From the IMG/VR virus record IMGVR_UViG_3300023184_000088, positions 56,615 through 76,614 of that record: DNA of 20,000 bases; one strand, given 5' to 3'. Source of the DNA: an uncultured virus (IMG/VR IMGVR_UViG_3300023184_000088). Lineage: Duplodnaviria > Heunggongvirae > Uroviricota > Caudoviricetes. Positions within the stretch are counted from its first letter, which is position 1. The number at the start of each line of letters is the position of its first letter. This document shows, one piece after another, positions 732 through 18,830 of this stretch. The translations under genes and the position numbers were made by a program. Below the pieces are notes generated by a model. That model was not told the DNA's origin. It made no database searches and saw only the letters and a program-made list of their open reading frames with translations.

Positions 732-1757
732 CTACAATTTTTTAAATTCCGGTTTGATTAGATTCCATATAATTTCGGAGTAATCTTTACGGTCAAACAT
801 CCTAAATAAAATACCTGATAAATGTTTAGGTTGTTGTGATACCCACTCAGCATACTCTTTTCTATCTGTGATGGGTTCTTTGTCGTTATATTTACCATAC
901 ATTTTACCATCAAATTTTTTACCAGCATCTTCAGATATTTGGAAATAAAAATACCTTAATTCTTTTACATAATTTTTAATTTTGGTGTAAAATTCATCCG
1001 GAACATCTTTTAATAATTCCATTACATCTTCACCATTTTTTAAATATTCCCATATACCTGTTGTAGACACATTGGTCATAATTTTATGAAGACGAAGATA
1101 CTCAACACCTTTTACTTTAACTCTATCTCCATTTGAGAACTTCACCACGAACCCCTCTTGGTCGTTTTTAACCATTTCTTTTAATTGTTGGTAGTCCTTG
1201 ATACCATCGTATTTTTTAACCACATCAAAACCCCACTCATCCCAATCTGACATGTCATAATCTTTACCCCAATTATCGAATGCTCCCAATAGGACCAGTT
1301 TCTCTTCACCTTTATAATCCAAAACAATTCTGTTTTCCGGGTAGATAATCTCAAAACAAAATGTCATATGTCTAAACATTATGTCTGTATTGTATTTCTT
1401 TAAGAGTTCTCTCGCTTTGATTGCTTGGTCTGATGTAAATGAACCACGAGTGGCAACCACCCATTGACCTTCATACCAAAATACGATACCTAATGAACCA
1501 TCCATTTTTTCATAAACTTCAAAGGTTTCAGTAGGAGTATATTTTCCTTCCTCAATATTAAAGAATTTTTTAAATGGTGTTGCAACAATATCTCCTTTGT
1601 CGTCAGTAACTAAACCTCTTGTACTAAGAGTCACCTCATCCCACAGGTTCTCGTACTGAACTTTTTCAGAGTAGTTCCATATGGTTAATGGGAGTGTTGG
1701 ATGTACTTGTTTGTAAAGTAATCCGTCTTCGTAATATTTGTTTAGTTTTTCTAACAT
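732..1757 (-). CDS. RNA ligase, T4 Rnl1 (RnlA) family
   Basis: KFFN, motif I EKMDGSLG, TRGSF, motif IV EGFVV, motif V RVKVK..EY. Confidence 0.9.
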   Translation of the reverse strand: MLEKLNKYYEDGLLYKQVHPTLPLTIWNYSEKVQYENLWDEVTLSTRGLVTDDKGDIVATPFKKFFNIEEGKYTPTETFEVYEKMDGSLGIVFWYEGQWVVATRGSFTSDQAIKARELLKKYNTDIMFRHMTFCFEIIYPENRIVLDYKGEEKLVLLGAFDNWGKDYDMSDWDEWGFDVVKKYDGIKDYQQLKEMVKNDQEGFVVKFSNGDRVKVKGVEYLRLHKIMTNVSTTGIWEYLKNGEDVMELLKDVPDEFYTKIKNYVKELRYFYFQISEDAGKKFDGKMYGKYNDKEPITDRKEYAEWVSQQPKHLSGILFRMFDRKDYSEIIWNLIKPEFKKL

Positions 1758-3325: not shown

Positions 3326-3988
3326 TTATTTTCTTTTTTTACCGTCTTCAGTTTCAATCTCATCCGTGTGGTGGTCAAATAACATATCTGACACAATATC
3401 ACGTTTATCCATTATTCTTATTATATCATCCATATCATATACTCCAAAATTTGGGTGACCATCCATACCAACATCCATTTTCTTACCTTTACCAAATCTT
3501 AAATTTGTTGGTAAGTGAACGTGTCCATGGAGATGAATAACACCTCTATTCAAGTTCTCCCAAGAAGCTATTGGATAATGAAATAATTCAAATGTTTTGA
3601 ATTTGTATGTCATAATATCTGAACGAGAAACACTTGCAAATAACTCCTGACAATCACCTCTGTTGTTTTGAATGTGGTGGTCGTGATTACCTAATATAAG
3701 GTGAATCTCTTTACACACAATTCTATCTCTGAATTTTTGGATGTTTTCAAATCCCCCGAAGCTCCAATCCCCAAGATGAATTAACACATCATCTTCACCA
3801 ACAACACTATTAATGTTATTAACGATTGTTTCGTTCATCTGTTCTATTGTATTAAAATCTCTCGTTTGAGATATCGGAATACTACCATCAGGGAGACGCC
3901 ATTCGGTCACTCCTCTACATATGTTTTTGTGTCCGTAGTGTGTATCGGACGTAACAAAAACTTTTCTATCTTTATCTATCTTAATCAT
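3326..3988 (-). CDS. Calcineurin-like metallophosphoesterase
   Basis: SDTHYGH, LGD, GNHD, FHYP, HGHVH motifs. Confidence 0.9.
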   Translation of the reverse strand: MIKIDKDRKVFVTSDTHYGHKNICRGVTEWRLPDGSIPISQTRDFNTIEQMNETIVNNINSVVGEDDVLIHLGDWSFGGFENIQKFRDRIVCKEIHLILGNHDHHIQNNRGDCQELFASVSRSDIMTYKFKTFELFHYPIASWENLNRGVIHLHGHVHLPTNLRFGKGKKMDVGMDGHPNFGVYDMDDIIRIMDKRDIVSDMLFDHHTDEIETEDGKKRK

Positions 3989-4478
3989 ACTGCAAATGTA
4001 GTTCTTTTTTTCCAAACCAAAAAGGTTTTTCTCTATTTTTCCAAGAGGCTAAATTAATTTTAGCACCCATATAATAATTTCTATAAGATTCCACAACAGA
4101 ATCCACCTTAAACTCATCCGGCATTGCCATTGCTGGTTGAGTAAAACCAATATCCGGAATGTTTGGTTTATTAATGATACACCAATTAATCACATCTATT
4201 GATTTGTGTCTTTTACCATACCTGTGGGTATATTCCTTCCCAAGTTCTAACCCCAATTCACACAAATACAAATAATTTGATAAACTCTGACGAGCCCACA
4301 CCGCACAAGGGTGATTTTTATGAGACAACTTGTACGGTACTTGGTCGTTAACTTGGTCGGTTACGTGATGAACGCTACATAATAATTGAGCGGTTTCCAA
4401 AATCATTTTCACTACGTGTTTATCTACGTGGTATTGAGCCGATAGTTTAGGATTCTCATCCAAGAAAAATATATTCAT
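3981..4478 (-). CDS. Pyrimidine-dimer DNA glycosylase / endonuclease V-like family protein
   Basis: MNIFFLD...DKHVVKMILETAQLL...HKNHPCAVW...AMPD...YRNYY signature. Confidence 0.75.
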   Translation of the reverse strand: MNIFFLDENPKLSAQYHVDKHVVKMILETAQLLCSVHHVTDQVNDQVPYKLSHKNHPCAVWARQSLSNYLYLCELGLELGKEYTHRYGKRHKSIDVINWCIINKPNIPDIGFTQPAMAMPDEFKVDSVVESYRNYYMGAKINLASWKNREKPFWFGKKELHLQYD

Positions 4479-4948
4479 TATACATGTGGTATTTTGACTC
4501 TTACACAAGTTTGTGCTTGACCCTCGTTCATATAAAAATTATTTAAATAACCCATAATATTTGCACTTCCAATTGGATTAGCCGAATGAACATATACAGT
4601 TGGAAAAACAAATTTATCTATTTTTCTCTCACTTCTTGTCATATTAAACCTTCCCTCGTTTGTATTGTGGAATAATGCAACCAAGAATTTGGCAGCATCA
4701 TATCCGGTTTTTTCGTTAATATTGTTATAATCCAAAGTATAGTTCGGAGAAACATTACCATAATACTCTTTCATCGCAGAATCACCTAAATCGTGGTCCA
4801 GGGAGATTGTACTAACATTTTCTAAACCAATTTTGTTAACTTCGTTAACAAATTCATCATAATCTCTAACAACAACCCAATCATCTCCGGTTGGAGTTCT
4901 TACATCATCGAGATAAATTCTACAAGTTGTTTTCATATTATTTTCCAT
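4478..4948 (-). CDS. Cyclic-phosphate-processing receiver-like domain protein
   Basis: IYLDDVR, ISLDHDLG, TGYDAAKFL, VHSANPIG motifs. Confidence 0.75.
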   Translation of the reverse strand: MENNMKTTCRIYLDDVRTPTGDDWVVVRDYDEFVNEVNKIGLENVSTISLDHDLGDSAMKEYYGNVSPNYTLDYNNINEKTGYDAAKFLVALFHNTNEGRFNMTRSERKIDKFVFPTVYVHSANPIGSANIMGYLNNFYMNEGQAQTCVRVKIPHV

Positions 4949-10290: not shown

Positions 10291-10336
10291 ATTTATCTTT
10301 TTTTTAATTATAAACAATAAAATATAAATAATAAAT

Positions 10337-10364
10337 AAAAAACCCCCAAGTTTCCTCGGAGGTT
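10337..10364 (-). terminator. Terminator at the 3' end of the tRNA array
   Basis: Minus strand AACCTCCGAG-GAAA-CTTGGGGGTT followed by U tract. Confidence 0.75.
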
Positions 10365-10476
10365 CTATGTAGAGTTAAATGGTATCCACACTTAGGCATC
10401 ACTCTAAGACCACCGTTCACCACCTGTAAGAGCCTAACGATAGATATTGTACTTGCTTACACTCAAATATCAGCTG

Positions 10477-10551
10477 TGTCCTCGACAGGCTTCGAACCTG
10501 TATATCTCTCGGTTATGAGCCGAGCGCCTTCACCAATTTAGCTACAAGGAC
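10477..10551 (-). tRNA. tRNA-Met(CAT) elongator, or Ile2
   Basis: GTCCTTG/CGAGGAC acceptor; CTCGG-CTCATAA-CCGAG; TTCGAAG T-loop. Confidence 0.9.
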
Positions 10552-10591
10552 AATTATGGGTTTTTAATGAACCCATAAAACATATGTCAAT

Positions 10592-10825
10592 CTATTGGTG
10601 GTGCTTAATGTACCTCCCAAATTTATCAACCCTCACAGAGAGTTTCTCCAATCTAAAGTTCCAATTATCGAACTTTCCTAAGCCAGATTTTACTCTCGCC
10701 TGTTTAACCGCAGATACTTCTGCCTTCTCACGTCCTTCTTCCGTAGTTTCTACGAAAAAAGTGGGAGCCTGAACACCAGTCTTACTGGTAGGGACTACTC
10801 TCCAAATTCTCAATTTCTGAGTCAT
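10592..10825 (-). CDS. Small hypothetical protein
   Basis: 77-aa ORF co-oriented with the tRNAs. Confidence 0.65.
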   Translation of the reverse strand: MTQKLRIWRVVPTSKTGVQAPTFFVETTEEGREKAEVSAVKQARVKSGLGKFDNWNFRLEKLSVRVDKFGRYIKHHQ

Positions 10826-10893
10826 AAATTTTAGCTAATAGCTAAAACTATGTGGAGTTGGGTTGGTTGTTTTTCATAATATTAAATTTTTTG

Positions 10894-10978
10894 TATCCGG
10901 AGAGGGACTTGAACCCTCAATCTCCTTTCGGAAAACTAGATTTTAAGTCTAGCGTGTATACCATTTCACCACCCAGAT
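10894..10978 (-). tRNA. tRNA-Leu(TAA)
   Basis: CTAGA-CTTAAAA-TCTAG; long variable arm; A73. Confidence 0.92.
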
Positions 10979-10988
10979 GTGTTCCCCC

Positions 10989-11189
10989 AATGAGATTAGT
11001 TTGGGGTAGATATTCACAGTTTTTCTATTCAAAACCCAACGCGTCTTACCGCTTAAAAGTCAACTATTACTTGGAGGTGAGTTAGTATGCTCCCCTTTTT
11101 TCCAAAGACCTCATCTGTAAAACCGTTTGAGGCGTCAGCCACATCATTATTTCGAACGATGCCAAATCATTGAGTATCTCTATCTCATT
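10989..11189 (-). ncRNA. Candidate ~200-nt multibranched ncRNA
   Basis: Terminal AATGAGAT/ATCTCATT pairing plus several internal hairpins; no credible ORF. Confidence 0.55.
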
Positions 11190-11191
11190 TG

Positions 11192-11282
11192 TTGTCAGAA
11201 CAGGAATCGAACCTGTGCTGGACCAGAGGCCACTCACTCACGTAAGACCCCCGACCGAATACTACCACTATATCATCTAACA
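11192..11282 (-). ncRNA. tRNA-like RNA lacking an anticodon loop
   Basis: Acceptor TGTTAGA/TCTGACA, D arm ATAT-AGTGGTA-GTAT, T arm ACAGG-TTCGATT-CCTGT; anticodon arm replaced by a long GUGA-capped helix. Confidence 0.75.
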
Positions 11283-11286
11283 ATTG

Positions 11287-11358
11287 AGCTTCCACGAGGA
11301 ATCGAACCCCGTTATCTTGTGTACAAAACAAGCTCATCACCATTTATGTTTTGGAAGC
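11287..11358 (-). tRNA. tRNA-Thr(TGT)
   Basis: GCTTCCA/TGGAAGC; CTTGT-TTTGTAC-ACAAG; A at position 8. Confidence 0.88.
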
Positions 11359-11569
11359 CTGTCGCAGAGTATTTTTTTTAAGTAGAAGTCAACTCTGTCT
11401 CTTAAACTACTAAAAGAAACTGTCCAAGGTCTATCCTGCTTTCGCTGTCCAGATTTTTCTCTGTTTCTTATAACATCATCACTTCGGCCACATTGGGAGA
11501 ACCGCAGTTCCCACGTTGTTTAAGGAGGTAGTTTGGCGGTGTATCACACCGAGTTATGATAATGTATTG

Positions 11570-11642
11570 TACCCCAGGAGGGATTCGAACCCTCAAAATC
11601 TTGTTCCTAAGACAAGCGTGTCTACCATTCCACCACCGGGGC
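11570..11642 (-). tRNA. tRNA-Leu(TAG), short variable loop
   Basis: GCCCCGG/CTGGGGT; CTTGT-CTTAGGA-ACAAG; 73 nt. Confidence 0.9.
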
Positions 11643-11703
11643 AATTGATGGGACTTTAACCCATCTGTTGACTATAACAAAAACATAAAAAAAGAAAAAT
11701 TAG

Positions 11704-11775
11704 TACCCCCACAGGGACTCGAACCCCGATACTATCCTTAGAAGGGATATGTCCTATCCATTGAACGATGGAGGT
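11704..11775 (-). tRNA. tRNA-Arg(TCT)
   Basis: TATCC-CTTCTAA-GGATA; A20 in the D-loop. Confidence 0.92.
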
Positions 11776-11779
11776 AATT

Positions 11780-11978
11780 AAAATAGTGTGACCAAATTTT
11801 TCACCATTGCGGTCTGAAGGAGTTGTGACTTCATCTCCACGTCCGTTATGGGTAATTACTCCCAGATGGATGACCGGTGCGCCGTTGTCTTTCATCATAC
11901 TTTTCACCTACCTATGTGTTAAAGGGTTCCGGCAGTGTCCCCGAAGGTTACTTCATATAATTACTTTTTCACTATTTT
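11780..11978 (-). ncRNA. Candidate ~200-nt multibranched ncRNA
   Basis: Terminal AAAATAGTG/CACTATTTT; fills the Gly-Arg spacer; several internal stems. Confidence 0.55.
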
Positions 11979-11980
11979 TG

Positions 11981-12054
11981 AGCAACATGCCGGTCTCGAA
12001 CCGGCCTTATTCCACATTGGAAGTGTGGTGCCATACCTACTAGGCGAATGTTGC
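11981..12054 (-). tRNA. tRNA-Gly(TCC)
   Basis: GCAACAT/ATGTTGC; CCACA-CTTCCAA-TGTGG; U73. Confidence 0.93.
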
Positions 12055-12187
12055 AGTTTAGATGAACTTCGGACTTGTGTACCGAAATGAGACCCAATAA
12101 TTAAATCACTAACCCTAGGTGTGGTCTATTCATCTATTTTTTTAAACTTATACCTTTAAAATAAATTTTAATTTTAAGCTTATAAGC

Positions 12188-12361
12188 TTAAACTTTAGTT
12201 TTAAGGATGTTAATCTCCTTCTCGATTCTTTTCTTATCAAAATCGGTTAAAGGGATTTTAGTACTCATAGTACCTTTTTCGGTTTTTACACCATTTTTTA
12301 ATTGTTTCTCCAACATATCAAGAACTCTTTGTTGTCTTGACCTTTTTGCTACTGTAGCCAT
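12188..12361 (-). CDS. Small basic hypothetical protein (57 aa, MATVAKRSRQQRVLDMLEKQLKNG...)
   Basis: Hand-translated ORF below the ORF-track cutoff; protein-like composition. Confidence 0.6.
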   Translation of the reverse strand: MATVAKRSRQQRVLDMLEKQLKNGVKTEKGTMSTKIPLTDFDKKRIEKEINILKTKV

Positions 12362-12383
12362 ACGGATTTAGTTATTAAATTAG

Positions 12384-12456
12384 TAGCGTAGGGCAGGTAA
12401 CGCTCCTGCTTTGGTCGGCTTATGAGACCGATGAGATACTATACCTCCCCCTCGCG
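12384..12456 (-). tRNA. Initiator-like tRNA-Met(CAT), atypical
   Basis: 5' CGCG with C1 mismatch; TCGGT-CTCATAA-GCCGA; T-loop AGCGTTA; bulged A in the acceptor stem. Confidence 0.75.
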
Positions 12457-12468
12457 ATGTATTATTTT

Positions 12469-12558
12469 TGGCGGTCTACGTGGGAGTCGAACCCACTTTT
12501 TCGTTTACCTACTTACTACCGTGACAGGGTAGCGCAACAGCCGTTATGCGCGTAGACC
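12469..12558 (-). tRNA. tRNA-Asp(GTC) with 19-nt variable region and encoded CCA
   Basis: GGTCTAC/GTAGACC-GCCA; CTACC-CTGTCAC-GGTAG. Confidence 0.85.
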
Positions 12559-12661
12559 AAAATTTTCAATTCAAAGGTGACAATCCTATAACAATTGAAA
12601 GAGAAAGAACCGTGTTTCCCGGGTAGTGACTTCCCGTATCCTGTCTTCCTGTTTTGTTTTA

Positions 12662-12692
12662 CAAAGATAGTTATTAAATCTTTAATAACCAA
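12662..12692 (-). promoter_or_regulatory. Bacteroidota-type promoter
   Basis: TATCTTTG (-7) with TTG about 20 nt upstream. Confidence 0.6.
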
Positions 12693-12698
12693 TTTTTT

Positions 12699-13304
12699 TC
12701 ACACCATTTTATTAAGTGTTGGTAAATACCATTTAAATTTCACCGCCATTACTCTAACTGATATAATCACTAATGAAGTGGTTAGATATAACACATCTGA
12801 GTTTAGGTTAAATTTCCTAAGTATGAAGAACACAATCCCCCCCAATATACAAATGGTTGCATATATTTCTTTTTTAAATATAACCGGTATTTCAGCACAT
12901 AGAATATCTCTAATCACACCACCAAAACAAGCGGTCATTGTACCTAATGCGATACATATAATGGGATGTAGACCAATGTTTATTCCTTTTTCTAATCCAA
13001 TCAATGTGAATACACCTAAACCGATTGTATCGAATATAAACAGATATATTTTAAACTTCTCTATCAGTTGTTTGAATAGTAATGTTAATATAAATCCTGT
13101 TATTATTATAAAGATATAATCTATATTGACCATCCATCCTACCGGTGTTCTTCCAATCATTACATCTCTCAGTGTTCCACCACCTAATGCGGTTACGAAT
13201 GTAATTATAAACACTCCGAATAAGTCCATTTTTTTATCTATGGATACTAAAGCTCCGGATATAGCAAATGCCAGTGTCCCTATTAGGTCTAATAAATTAA
13301 ACAT
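12699..13304 (-). CDS. Trimeric intracellular cation channel (TRIC)/UPF0126 YadS-like membrane protein
   Basis: GTLAFAISG, TALGGGTLRD, DTIGLGVF, TACFGGVIRDIL duplicated motifs. Confidence 0.9.
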   Translation of the reverse strand: MFNLLDLIGTLAFAISGALVSIDKKMDLFGVFIITFVTALGGGTLRDVMIGRTPVGWMVNIDYIFIIITGFILTLLFKQLIEKFKIYLFIFDTIGLGVFTLIGLEKGINIGLHPIICIALGTMTACFGGVIRDILCAEIPVIFKKEIYATICILGGIVFFILRKFNLNSDVLYLTTSLVIISVRVMAVKFKWYLPTLNKMV

Positions 13305-15233: not shown

Positions 15234-15432
15234 AATTTAATATTCTCTTACATAACGGCGATAATCGCCGGTATTTAATATTTTTGTAAAACAACAGACG
15301 GCTTTGAAGTACATCCACACCAACAATTATGACCGACTTCACCTTATGTGGAAGTTTAGTTTTACAATATCTATAAAGATTTACCCCAGCCTTTAGGTCG
15401 CTATTAATACCTTTAATCCTTATTCTCAAATT

Positions 15433-15497
15433 AATTAATACAGGAATCGAACCTGCGTCTGGGCCGTCACCCCGTAGTACCACTCTACTAATTTTTC
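15433..15497 (-). pseudogene. Truncated tRNA-like element (possibly Val(GAC)-derived)
   Basis: Intact D arm GTAG-AGTGGTA-CTAC and T arm GCAGG-TTCGATT-CCTGT; 3-bp anticodon stem; weak acceptor. Confidence 0.55.
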
Positions 15498-15631: not shown

Positions 15632-15641
15632 ATTTTTATTG

Positions 15642-15724
15642 AGTTCAGGGTCGGATTCGAACCGACGAGGACTTTCGTCATTGGTTTTGCAGACCAATCT
15701 AATCAACCACTCTAGCACCTGAAC
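15642..15724 (-). tRNA. tRNA-Cys(GCA) with long variable arm
   Basis: GTTCAGG/CCTGAAC-U73; TTGGT-CTGCAAA-ACCAA; variable arm GAC-GAAA-GTC. Confidence 0.88.
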
Positions 15725-17339: not shown

Positions 17340-17849
17340 TTAAAAAAATAAATATGGTTCCCATTCTTTTGGGATGTCGTGATGAACTTGTTTCATTAAC
17401 ATCAAATAGTGAGGTCTTCTGGGTTGAGGGATTTCTTTACCATACTCCTCTAACGTCAAATTGGACTTCTCACCGTTACATCTCCTACAAGCGGTAACCA
17501 AGTTATCCCAACTATCTTTACCCCCCTTAGATTGAGGCACTACGTGGTCCAAAGTTAATGTCTTTCTATTATTACATCCACAATATACACACTCAAAATT
17601 ATCTCTACGATAAACATTCTCTCTATTTAAAGGAACTTTTTGTATGATTTGATTCACATATTTATAAACTCGGATAATGGATGGTTTTTTAATATCCAAT
17701 TCGGGATTCACTAATTTAAATGATTCCGGATGTTCGTTTATAACATCGGCATTACCTTTATAAGAAATGACGAAAGCCCTCTCTGTGGAAATAATACTCC
17801 TCGCCATATAACTTGAATCCAAGACCAAAGTTTTTTGGTAACTACTCAC
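17340..17849 (-). CDS. HNH endonuclease (McrA-like)
   Basis: RDNFECVYCG, TLDHVVPQSKGG..SWDNLVTACRRCN. Confidence 0.92.
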   Translation of the reverse strand: MSSYQKTLVLDSSYMARSIISTERAFVISYKGNADVINEHPESFKLVNPELDIKKPSIIRVYKYVNQIIQKVPLNRENVYRRDNFECVYCGCNNRKTLTLDHVVPQSKGGKDSWDNLVTACRRCNGEKSNLTLEEYGKEIPQPRRPHYLMLMKQVHHDIPKEWEPYLFF

Positions 17850-18040: not shown

Positions 18041-18112
18041 TCGGTACGGATGGACTCGAACCATCGACGACCATTTCATCAGAATGGGCTTCTACCACTG
18101 AATTACGTACCG
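18041..18112 (-). tRNA. tRNA-Ile(GAT), G37
   Basis: CGGTACG/CGTACCG-A73; CCATT-CTGATGA-AATGG. Confidence 0.88.
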
Positions 18113-18657
18113 AATAAATTATAGTGTAATTCTCTATGACAATTAGAACATAATAAAATACATTTATCTAATTCTTCTTTTATTTTATCCCAAGACATAT
18201 TCATATTACTTGAAGGTGCAAAATCTTTTTTTTCAGGGTCTAAATGATGAAATTCTAACGCAATTACACATTTTTTATATCCACACTTAACACATTCTCC
18301 CCCTTTATATTCAACGGCTCGTTCTTTGTTTCGTCGTCTAAAACTTTTTACGTGTAAATAATTATTTCTAATTCTTTCTTCATCGGTTAATAATGTTACT
18401 TTTTTTTCCACATAATATTTTACGGAATGTGGAGACATATTAAAAAAATCTGCAGTTTCTTGTCTAGTGTGTGTTTGATAATATTCATTAATCTCCTTAA
18501 CTTTATCATCAGATAACCTTACTTTACCATCTGCTCTACCACCTAAACCATTATCTTTACAATATTTACTAACCGTTGATTTGGCTAAACCTGTTATTTT
18601 TTGTATTACATTAACACTTTTTCCTTCTCTTCTTAATTCTAAAACTTTTTCTTTCAT
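18103..18657 (-). CDS. HTH + HNH endonuclease, probable homing endonuclease
   Basis: N-terminal HTH (GKSVNVIQKITGLAKSTVSKY); YKGGECVKCGY, LEFHHLDP, CILLCSNCHRELH. Confidence 0.88.
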   Translation of the reverse strand: MKEKVLELRREGKSVNVIQKITGLAKSTVSKYCKDNGLGGRADGKVRLSDDKVKEINEYYQTHTRQETADFFNMSPHSVKYYVEKKVTLLTDEERIRNNYLHVKSFRRRNKERAVEYKGGECVKCGYKKCVIALEFHHLDPEKKDFAPSSNMNMSWDKIKEELDKCILLCSNCHRELHYNLFGT

Positions 18658-18751
18658 ACTTACACCCTTTTTATTATCATTACCTGATAATTATAAGTAT
18701 CTTGGTTTTAGTGAAAAACCATATTTAATTAAAAACATTTTAACACGATTG

Positions 18752-18830
18752 TCGGGTAGACAGGACTCGAACCTGCAATAAAATGTCCTCATCCCAAATG
18801 AGGCGACTTAGCCAATTAGTCTACTACCCG
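18752..18830 (-). tRNA. tRNA-Pro(TGG), 10-nt variable region
   Basis: CGGGTAG/CTACCCG-A73; CCTCA-TTTGGGA-TGAGG. Confidence 0.9.

What the first reader, a model, noticed from the sequence alone, without database searches (positions are those of the whole stretch)
11192..11282. Anticodon-less tRNA mimic with a GNRA-capped extended arm
Seen (minus strand): fully paired 7-bp acceptor UGUUAGA/UCUGACA+A73, canonical D-loop AGUGGUA and T-loop UUCGAUU. The anticodon arm is instead an 11-bp G-U-rich helix (GGUCGGGGGUC/GGCCUCUGGUC) continuing into a short UUAC-GUGA-GUGA hairpin, with no U33/anticodon loop. It lies 4 nt downstream of tRNA-Thr. An intact elbow and acceptor with a replaced anticodon arm look selected rather than decayed. 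Inference: a tRNA-shaped decoy for elbow/acceptor-binding proteins (toxins, synthetases, EF-Tu), or a non-translational aminoacyl carrier.
Basis: partly seen in the sequence, partly recalled or inferred. Interest (0 to 1): 0.8.

Follow-up and report, generated by a model that had tools for sequence, protein, structure and literature searches.

The report
Sealed-anticodon tRNA look-alike in jumbo phage
A lake-water giant phage carries, inside its tRNA gene island, a real and conserved RNA gene shaped like a tRNA whose codon-reading arm is replaced by a long closed hairpin, so it almost certainly cannot decode and instead looks like a natural "tRNA frame" carrying a small hairpin RNA of unknown job.

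Summary
At 11192-11282 (minus strand), 3-4 nt after tRNA-Thr, lies a 91-nt cloverleaf with a 7-bp acceptor stem, normal D and T arms, and a 36-nt GNRA-capped hairpin in place of the anticodon arm.

Default ARAGORN and the whole-window Rfam scan miss it. Rfam's tRNA model scores it 36.2 bits only by skipping the whole anticodon arm.

It is not a one-off. Six IMG/VR contigs of related roughly 310-kb T4-like lake phages hold three further variants. All 28 consensus pairs are kept in all 4 sequences. Four pairs changed on both sides: three in the acceptor, one in the long arm. The arm sequence differs at 18 of 41 columns yet keeps the hairpin and the GNRA cap. No homolog with a normal anticodon arm was found.

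It shares its T arm, and 5 of 7 acceptor pairs (one as a wobble), with a large group of tRNA-framed elements: at least 122 distinct, 69-139 nt, 92 not called as tRNAs.

Best reading: a selected, non-decoding, tRNA-framed small RNA matured like a tRNA. Its target is unknown. The decoy, recombination-debris and spliced tRNA-Val readings remain as rivals.

The scan has noted sealed-anticodon tRNA mimics in other phages before.

The parts
11276..11282 (-). 5' strand of the acceptor stem (UGUUAGA)
   Evidence: Pairs 1-72, 4-69 and 6-67 change on both sides among homologs.
11259..11273 (-). D arm: stem AUAU/GUAU, loop AGUGGUA with G18 G19
   Evidence: Invariant in all 4 family members.
11221..11256 (-). 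Extended arm replacing the anticodon arm: 11 bp, a GU bulge, 4 bp and the loop
   Evidence: The consensus with homologs keeps 11 shared pairs, 0 broken, with 1 double change and 5 one-sided changes.
11238..11241 (-). GUGA tetraloop (GNRA type). Homologs have GAAA here.
11217..11220 (-). 4-nt variable loop CAGC (C48 opposite G15)
11200..11216 (-). T arm ACAGG-UUCGAUU-CCUGU
   Evidence: The same T arm occurs in the large S-frame group.
11191..11199 (-). 3' strand of the acceptor stem (UCUGACA), then discriminator A and a C followed by A-rich sequence
   Evidence: Fifteen of the 18 ARAGORN tRNAs of this contig end with N73-C and then A; two have T and one G after the C (tRNA-Asp carries a full CCA).
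11286..11358 (-). tRNA-Thr(UGU), immediately upstream
   Evidence: Rfam 45.2 bits.
10893..10978 (-). tRNA-Leu(UAA), the next gene downstream after a 213-nt spacer that is conserved in relatives

Best explanation
This is a genuine, selectively maintained, non-decoding RNA gene built on a tRNA frame. It sits inside the phage's tRNA island.

Inferred: it is transcribed with its tRNA neighbours. Its intact upper half (acceptor stem, T arm, D arm and elbow nucleotides) lets the usual tRNA enzymes cut it out and finish its 3' end. Those enzymes are RNase P at the 5' end, 3' trimming at the shared N73-C/A-rich signature, and CCA completion.

Shown: the anticodon arm is replaced by a closed, roughly 15-bp GNRA-capped hairpin. 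The RNA therefore has no loop that could read a codon.

Inferred: the tRNA frame acts as a natural version of the laboratory 'tRNA scaffold'. It makes a small hairpin RNA stable and correctly processed. The function lies in the displayed arm, in the anticodon-free tRNA shape, or in both. The molecular target is unknown.
For: Architecture and tRNA-like score without any anticodon arm.

Three further variants of the same design occur in 6 related phage contigs. They lie in three different neighbourhoods.

All 28 consensus pairs are kept in 4 of 4 sequences. Four pairs changed on both sides; 6 of 500 shuffles reach this; slid controls pair 42-54%.

Between the window's arm and the relatives' arm, 18 of 41 columns differ. 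Of 22 paired columns, 7 changed and all 7 preserve pairing. Of 19 unpaired columns, 11 changed. Both arms end in GNRA.

The element has the same N73-C-then-A 3' flank as 15 of the contig's 18 called tRNAs.

It shares its T arm, and 5 of 7 acceptor pairs (one as a U-G wobble), with a large group of tRNA-framed elements. In that group, 122 distinct elements were sampled, 92 are not called tRNA by ARAGORN, and 3 have an anticodon-like loop. Lengths run 69-139 nt, and some insert types are conserved across phages.

The laboratory tRNA scaffold uses the acceptor, T and D arms with the anticodon stem-loop replaced by an insert held as a hairpin. It is processed and stable in E. coli (PMC3753655, passages read).
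Against: No RNA evidence exists for this element. The metatranscriptome contigs laid gave almost no cover over it, so transcription, processing and CCA addition are all inferred.

Only two independent versions of the arm exist, so covariation in the arm rests on a single comparison.

The element is dispensable. The closest relative found (98% identity in a neighbouring protein) lacks it.

The consensus structure was derived from the same four sequences on which the pairs were counted.
Confidence: 0.55

Rival explanations
1. A decoy. The anticodon-free tRNA shape soaks up a host or phage protein that recognises the acceptor, T arm or elbow. Candidates are a tRNA-directed defence toxin, a synthetase, EF-Tu or a repair enzyme. 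The arm only needs to stay closed so that it cannot be cleaved or used in decoding.
For: The upper half is the best conserved part. Presence or absence differs between close relatives, and several unrelated odd tRNA-like genes occupy the same spot after tRNA-Thr, which is typical of accessory or conflict loci. An Rnl1-type RNA ligase, a kinase, a phosphoesterase and a cREC domain lie 6-10 kb away. Jumbo-phage comparative work links such sets to repair of tRNAs cut by host defences (PMC7824862, passages read).
Against: No partner is identified. The best known anticodon nucleases recognise the anticodon loop, which is absent here (recalled). A mere closure would not need a 36-nt arm whose bulges and GNRA cap are kept in both versions. 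Many relatives in the wider group carry long, complex inserts.
Confidence: 0.2
2. Recombination debris. The element is a chimeric by-product of gene shuffling in a tRNA island that carries homing-type HNH endonucleases. It is not yet decayed and has no function of its own.
For: It is absent from the closest relative, and the Thr-to-Leu interval holds 0 to 4 odd elements in different relatives. HNH genes sit in the island at 17340-17849 and 18103-18657. A weak HNH-like ORF occupies the same spot in L010 and L017. The family is rare: 6 contigs in IMG/VR plus this one, 0 of 55 metagenome hits, and 0 in 185,579 species genomes.
Against: Compensatory changes occur at three acceptor pairs and one arm pair, and no pair is broken in 112 cells. 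All elbow nucleotides are intact. The element keeps the same 3' signature as most of the working tRNAs.
Confidence: 0.15
3. A pure processing signal (a 't-element'). The tRNA shape only recruits RNase P and 3' nucleases to cut the long array transcript at this point.
For: It lies between tRNA-Thr and a conserved 213-nt spacer. Earlier notes of this scan favoured this reading for sealed-anticodon mimics in other phages.
Against: Real tRNAs flank it on both sides and would give the same cuts. Relatives join tRNA-Thr directly to the same spacer without it. That role does not explain a conserved 36-nt arm.
Confidence: 0.08
4. An interrupted tRNA-Val. Part of the arm is removed, perhaps with the phage's own ligase, to give a decoding tRNA.
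For: Both arm versions contain a valine-like 7-mer at the same place: CUUACGU here and UUCACGA in relatives. Permissive ARAGORN calls tRNA-Val(UAC) with a 6-nt 'intron'. The complete relative that carries the element has no tRNA-Val among ARAGORN's 26 calls, while two complete relatives without it have a normal tRNA-Val. The phage encodes an RNA ligase and a kinase.
Against: The ARAGORN model needs an insert at a non-canonical place, a G-G mismatch, and a long variable arm. In the relatives only 3 of those 5 stem pairs would form (direct reading). Any simple excision leaves a stem of about 10 bp or no U33 loop. No bulge-helix-bulge motif or group I intron is present. A fourth complete relative has neither the element nor tRNA-Val. 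The normal tRNA-Val of relatives is unrelated in sequence.
Confidence: 0.03

Closest known systems
Canonical elongator tRNA (Rfam RF00005)
   Same: 7-bp acceptor stem, D arm with GG, T arm with UUCGAUU, a discriminator base, and a position inside a tRNA array. It scores 36.2 bits against a cut-off of 29.
   Different: There is no 5-bp anticodon stem and no 7-nt loop. The model aligns only by replacing all 17 anticodon-arm positions with 36 nt. Default ARAGORN does not call it.
Engineered 'tRNA scaffold' for recombinant RNA (PMC3753655, passages read)
   Same: Acceptor, T and D arms are kept. The anticodon stem-loop is replaced by an insert that stays a hairpin. The design relies on the cell's tRNA processing and stability.
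   Different: That is a laboratory construct. Here the arrangement is natural, and neither processing nor stability has been shown.
tRNA-like domain of tmRNA, with SmpB
   Same: A tRNA upper half without an anticodon. This same phage encodes a tmRNA (67.9 bits) and SmpB.
   Different: There is no G3-U70 pair, and a full D stem is present. There is no reading frame and no pseudoknots, and the element is 91 nt rather than about 400. Rfam gives no tmRNA hit beyond a 17-nt T-arm fragment at 10.5 bits.
Y-RNA-like YrlA RNAs (Rfam RF02553), the tRNA mimics of bacteria and phages
   Same: A non-decoding RNA that copies the tRNA D, T and acceptor modules. Sub-threshold YrlA-like hits of 41 and 26 bits lie in the same phage contig.
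   Different: YrlA is circularly permuted: its ends lie in the long stem and the acceptor-like helix is closed. Here the ends lie in the acceptor stem and the long stem is closed. Rfam gives no YrlA hit on the element.
RNAC and RNAD of phage T4
   Same: Small RNAs transcribed from the tRNA region of a T4-type phage, with roles still unknown (PMC3014915 and PMC9697503, passages read).
   Different: No sequences were compared here. Any tRNA-like folding of those RNAs is only recalled, not checked.
mascRNA and organellar or archaeal t-elements
   Same: tRNA-shaped, non-decoding RNAs recognised by RNase P and 3' enzymes (recalled; also named in this scan's earlier notes).
   Different: These are eukaryotic, organellar or archaeal. 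They have short or degenerate anticodon arms rather than an extended GNRA-capped one. The Rfam mascRNA model does not hit the element.

Membership tests
tRNA (decoding) | 7-bp acceptor stem with a discriminator base | tested here: met
   7 of 7 pairs, then A73.
tRNA (decoding) | D arm with G18 G19 and T arm with a U54-U55-C56 loop | tested here: met
tRNA (decoding) | 5-bp anticodon stem closing a 7-nt loop with U33 and a purine at 37 | tested here: not met
   The MFE and the family consensus give a closed hairpin with a 4-nt loop. Rfam skips the arm. Default ARAGORN makes no call.
Intron-bearing tRNA | A recognisable intron (bulge-helix-bulge or group I) whose removal leaves a normal anticodon arm | tested here: not met
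   Only a 6-nt insert at a non-canonical site with a G-G mismatch can be forced. In homologs 3 of the 5 stem pairs would form. RNA data were uninformative.
tmRNA | G3-U70 alanine identity pair, a tag reading frame and pseudoknots | tested here: not met
   Pair 3-70 is U-A. There is no RF00023 hit on the element.
YrlA / Y RNA | Permuted topology with the ends in a long Ro-binding stem | tested here: not met
   The ends are in the acceptor stem. There is no RF02553 hit on the element.
tRNA-framed non-decoding elements of these phages (family A, and the wider S-frame group, defined here) | Same T arm and related acceptor, tRNA-type D arm, and a central insert without an anticodon loop | tested here: met
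Natural tRNA scaffold (works like) | Excision by RNase P and 3' enzymes, CCA addition, and accumulation as a stable RNA | not testable with these tools
   Only the contig-level RNA data were available. They gave next to no cover over 11214-11287.

The most novel reading that the evidence does not exclude
T4-like giant lake phages that also carry GOLLD RNA, tmRNA and SmpB use one conserved tRNA upper half as a natural expression frame. On it they display a large, fast-changing repertoire of small RNA modules. At least 122 different inserts were sampled, including one conserved type that carries a CACCUCC stretch like the mRNA-binding end of 16S rRNA (that likeness is recalled). The element studied here is one such cassette, with a GNRA-tipped rod as payload. 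These RNAs would then be a new class of phage trans-acting RNAs, matured by the host's tRNA machinery and aimed at host or rival-phage targets. Possibly they dock to other large phage RNAs through the GNRA loop.
Probability: 0.25. Interest if true: 0.85.

Novelty: new variant of a known kind. Interest (0 to 1): 0.62.

Why it matters
tRNA islands of large phages are usually read as codon-usage helpers or as spare parts against host nucleases that cut tRNAs. Here a sizeable share of the 'tRNA genes' in one widespread group of lake phages cannot decode at all, yet is kept in tRNA shape by selection.

If these RNAs are matured and stable, phages have independently arrived at the trick biochemists use to produce foreign RNAs in bacteria. 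The inserts would then be a pool of unexplored small RNAs.

There is also a practical point. Default tRNA finders either miss these genes or give them arbitrary anticodons. In the sample, 30 of 122 received a scatter of unrelated amino-acid labels. Phage tRNA counts and codon-usage arguments can therefore be distorted.

Tried and rejected
RNA evidence. Four metatranscriptome runs, held as contigs only, were laid on 10400-12600. The bin 11214-11287 had depths of 4.09, 0, 0 and 1.76, and no joint fell inside the element. This says nothing either way about expression or splicing.

Search for more family members.
- An exact 24-nt T-arm/acceptor pattern in IMG/VR found 0.
- BLAST of the 301-nt region against 50,697 phage records found no match.
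- A gapped D-arm/T-loop pattern in the metagenome collection found 55 stretches, none of this family; by their look they are mostly intron-bearing tRNAs of other organisms.
- A 20-nt D-arm/arm pattern in 185,579 species genomes found 0.

Search for a normal-length parent tRNA with the same D arm gave 10 of 10 unrelated tRNAs, mostly Gly(UCC)-like.

Antisense target. The arm has no match longer than 9 nt elsewhere in the 76.6-kb contig, which is chance level.

Promoter and terminator scan of 10300-12700 found nothing next to the element. It gave 7 promoter-like sites against 5.1 expected and 6 terminator-like sites against 2.1 expected, most of the latter in tRNA arms.

The GIY-YIG cassette reading from earlier notes was not borne out. 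No GIY-YIG gene was seen in the window's ORFs. Only HNH genes are present.

Full report
WHAT IS THERE

The window is the last 20 kb of a 76.6-kb IMG/VR virus contig that CheckV rates as 26% complete. Complete relatives measure 308-322 kb. The contig carries T4-type major capsid, portal and terminase genes.

The minus strand of the window holds a tRNA island with 17 ARAGORN tRNAs. Rfam finds 16 of them at its cut-off.

The flagged element lies at 11192-11282 on the minus strand, 3-4 nt after tRNA-Thr(UGU) and 213 nt before tRNA-Leu(UAA). Read directly and folded (-28.9 kcal/mol), it has these parts:
- a fully paired 7-bp acceptor stem, then A73 and then C;
- a 4-bp D stem with the loop AGUGGUA;
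- a long arm;
- a 4-nt variable loop;
- a T arm, ACAGG-UUCGAUU-CCUGU.

The long arm consists of 11 bp, a GU bulge, 4 bp and a GUGA tetraloop. The nucleotides that normally build the tRNA elbow are all present. The only addition is a valine-like 7-mer (CUUACGU) buried in the 5' side of the hairpin.

HOW STANDARD TOOLS SEE IT

Default ARAGORN makes no call here. Rfam misses it at the gathering threshold on the whole window and in a 1.7-kb E-value search.

When only 115 nt are searched, Rfam's tRNA model scores the element 36.2 bits against a cut-off of 29. It does so only by replacing all 17 anticodon-arm positions with 36 unaligned bases.

ARAGORN with introns allowed and a lowered threshold calls it 'tRNA-Val(UAC)'. 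That call needs a 6-nt insert between the stem and the loop, a G-G mismatch and a long variable arm. I regard this solution as forced.

Folding energy alone is weak evidence. The whole element has z = -1.56 and the arm alone z = -2.46.

HOMOLOGS

An RNA-ligase gene 9.5 kb away brought in 79 related loci. A neighbouring membrane-protein gene brought in two more. BLAST of the element against these 83 loci found only itself at full length.

The closest relative, L003, is 98% identical in the neighbouring protein. There a different, 82-nt tRNA-Thr abuts the downstream spacer directly. The element is absent.

Pattern scans of IMG/VR with the D arm then found true homologs:
- four contigs with an identical copy, A1, again right after tRNA-Thr and before the same spacer;
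- one contig with A2, in a different neighbourhood;
- one contig with A3, in yet another neighbourhood.

A covariance model built from the four distinct sequences scores them 95-116 bits. The next hit in 1.16 Mb of related DNA scores 47 bits.

Nothing of this family was found in the metagenome collection (0 of 55 hits). Nothing was found in one genome each of 185,579 prokaryote species or in 50,697 phage records. A scan for a normal-length tRNA with the same D arm returned 10 unrelated tRNAs.

That condition is not met by anything I could find.

SELECTION

In the four-sequence alignment, A1, A2 and A3 are identical from the D arm to the T arm, apart from one T-stem wobble. They differ in the acceptor stem.

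RNAalifold gives one common structure. Counting on it gives these results:
- All 112 pair cells are standard pairs.
- Four pairs changed on both sides: 1-72 (U-A to A-U), 4-69 (C-G, U-G, U-A), 6-67 (G-C to A-U), and one pair in the arm (G-C to A-U).
- 6 of 500 shuffles reach these values.
- Sliding the partners by 1-3 columns drops pairing to 42-54%.

The window's arm differs from the relatives' arm at 18 of 41 columns. Of 22 paired columns, 7 changed and every change keeps the pair. Of 19 unpaired columns, 11 changed. The loop stays GNRA: GUGA here, GAAA in the relatives.

The caveats are real. There are only four sequences and only two independent arms, and the structure was derived from the same data. 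Even so, a decaying pseudogene should show broken pairs, and none is seen.

The element also shares the N73-C-then-A 3' flank with 15 of the 18 called tRNAs of the contig. That suggests the same 3'-end handling.

THE WIDER SETTING

The interval between tRNA-Thr and tRNA-Leu(UAA) is a hot spot. Different relatives hold one of the following there:
- nothing;
- this family;
- a 117-121-nt family with two T-arm-like motifs and a tetraloop-capped arm;
- 80-94-nt odd 'tRNAs';
- a weak HNH-like ORF.

The element's T arm, and five of its seven acceptor pairs (one as a U-G wobble), are those of a much larger group, which I call the S frame. Its acceptor is AGUCAGG/CCUGACU with A73. Most members have a D arm that I recall as tRNA-Leu-like.

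Of these:
- 92 are not called tRNA by ARAGORN, and the other 30 get a scatter of unrelated anticodons;
- 3 of 122 have an anticodon-like loop in the fold of the central part, and 13 have a GNRA-capped hairpin.

Some insert types recur with few changes in different phages. So at least some inserts are conserved rather than drifting freely.

The same contig, just outside the window, encodes several other RNA elements: a GOLLD RNA (321.8 bits), a tmRNA (67.9 bits), SmpB, and two sub-threshold YrlA-like elements.

Inside the window, 6-10 kb from the element, lie four RNA-repair genes: an Rnl1-type RNA ligase, an AAA_33 kinase, a metallophosphoesterase and a cREC domain protein. A published survey of jumbo phages ties such gene sets to RNA repair (PMC7824862, passages read). 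GOLLD is described as lying near tRNA islands of phages, with unknown function (bioRxiv 10.1101/2024.12.08.627333, passages read).

HOW IT MOST LIKELY WORKS

Shown:
- It is a tRNA-shaped gene with no decoding loop.
- It is kept in shape in related phages.
- It sits inside a tRNA array, with the N73-C-then-A 3' flank that most of its neighbours have.

Inferred: it is co-transcribed with the array, released by RNase P and 3' nucleases, and completed with CCA. It is stable because it looks like a tRNA.

This is exactly the logic of the engineered tRNA scaffold. There the acceptor, T and D arms are kept and the anticodon stem-loop is replaced by an insert held as a hairpin (PMC3753655, passages read).

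Two things make me favour 'frame plus payload' at 0.55 over a pure decoy at 0.2. One is the diversity and partial conservation of inserts in the S-frame group. The other is that this element's arm keeps its bulge positions and its GNRA cap in both versions.

The other readings score lower: recombination debris 0.15, a mere processing mark 0.08, and a spliced tRNA-Val 0.03. The tRNA-Val idea has some support. Both arms carry a valine-like 7-mer, and the complete relative with the element lacks an ARAGORN tRNA-Val while two relatives without it have one. However, no excision gives a normal anticodon arm. A fourth complete relative has neither. The normal tRNA-Val of relatives is unrelated in sequence. 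The 7-mer may be a relic of descent from a tRNA-Val.

WHAT COULD NOT BE SETTLED

Nothing here shows that the RNA is made. The four metatranscriptome runs were available only as contigs. They barely touch 11214-11287. The target of the arm, any charging with an amino acid, and any link to GOLLD, tmRNA/SmpB or the repair enzymes all remain open.

PRIOR KNOWLEDGE

I found no description of such elements in the papers searched:
- tRNA-like / phage / anticodon / jumbo;
- tRNA-like / bacteriophage / lacks an anticodon;
- phage-encoded tRNA / anticodon nuclease / tRNA-like / decoy;
- non-canonical tRNA / phage / tRNA-like / extended anticodon / metagenom.

A survey of viral structured RNAs mentions unspecified 'tRNA or tRNA-like' candidates (PMC10690425, passages read). 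Its supplementary tables were not opened and could list relatives.

T4's RNAC and RNAD are small RNAs of unknown role from its tRNA region. They are the nearest precedent in kind.

Earlier notes of this scan report sealed-anticodon tRNA mimics in several other phages. Those notes are unchecked AI notes. I used them only as leads for the processing-signal reading and the nuclease-cassette reading.

Noticed in passing
L276 14949-15355 (-) = own contig G000 52949-53355, about 3.3 kb before the window start: A GOLLD RNA (Rfam RF02032, 321.8 bits, full length) sits in the same phage contig beside the tRNA-like genes.
   Followed up: partly
G000 51537-51952 (+) and L276:14435-15013 (-): The phage encodes its own tmRNA (67.9 bits) and an SmpB protein (Pfam PF01668, E 3.4e-46). 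tmRNA scores over the cut-off in 3 of the 4 complete relatives searched; the fourth scores 45.6 bits, just under the 47-bit cut-off.
   Followed up: partly
L276 16078-16173 (-) and 15875-15983 (-), flanking L276 15986-16076: Two sub-threshold YrlA (Y-RNA-like) hits of 41 and 26 bits (cut-off 69). They flank a 91-nt tRNA with a 20-nt insert in its D loop and an 8-nt anticodon loop.
   Followed up: no
Loci L291-L370 and others (IMG/VR); own contig G000 54598-54701 (-): A large 'S-frame' group. Members share one tRNA upper half (acceptor AGUCAGG/CCUGACU, T arm ACAGGUUCGANUCCUGU, discriminator mostly A).
   Followed up: partly
L006 11982-12083, L011 14442-14543, L019 12827-12928, L056 7149-7250; 3 of the 122 sampled elements: One conserved S-frame insert type carries the stretch CACCUCC. 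I recall this as matching the mRNA-binding 3' end of 16S rRNA. It could be an anti-Shine-Dalgarno mimic displayed on a tRNA frame.
   Followed up: no
L007 1014-1130, L011 3232-3352, L024 1263-1379 (and their duplicates): A second odd family of 117-121 nt sits 4 nt after tRNA-Thr in other relatives (in L024 some 60 nt further on). It has a tRNA-like acceptor and D arm, a tetraloop-capped arm, and two T-arm-like motifs.
   Followed up: no
window 12469-12558 (-), 15641-15724 (-), 18751-18830 (-); L003 8287-8368: Several decoding tRNAs of these phages are enlarged. Asp is 90 nt, with a roughly 20-nt variable region and an encoded CCA. Cys is 84 nt and Pro 80 nt. In relatives, tRNA-Thr is 82-84 nt with an extra GAAA-capped mini-hairpin.
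   Followed up: no
window 732-1757, 1896-2288, 3326-4015, 4478-4948 (all -): An RNA-repair gene set: an Rnl1-type RNA ligase, an AAA_33 kinase, a metallophosphoesterase and a cREC_REC domain protein.
   Followed up: no
window 15431-15497 (-): Another uncalled tRNA-like stretch, with T arm GCAGG-UUCGAUU-CCUGU and a D-arm-like hairpin. It scores 28.1 bits with the family model.
   Followed up: no
window 17340-17849 (-), 18103-18657 (-); L010 1826-2539: HNH endonuclease genes lie inside the tRNA island. A weak HNH-like ORF fills the Thr-to-next-gene gap in relatives L010 and L017.
   Followed up: partly
window 11362-11583 and other spacers: Contigs from four metatranscriptome runs of four studies cover the spacers between the tRNA genes. 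DNA carry-over cannot be excluded.
   Followed up: no
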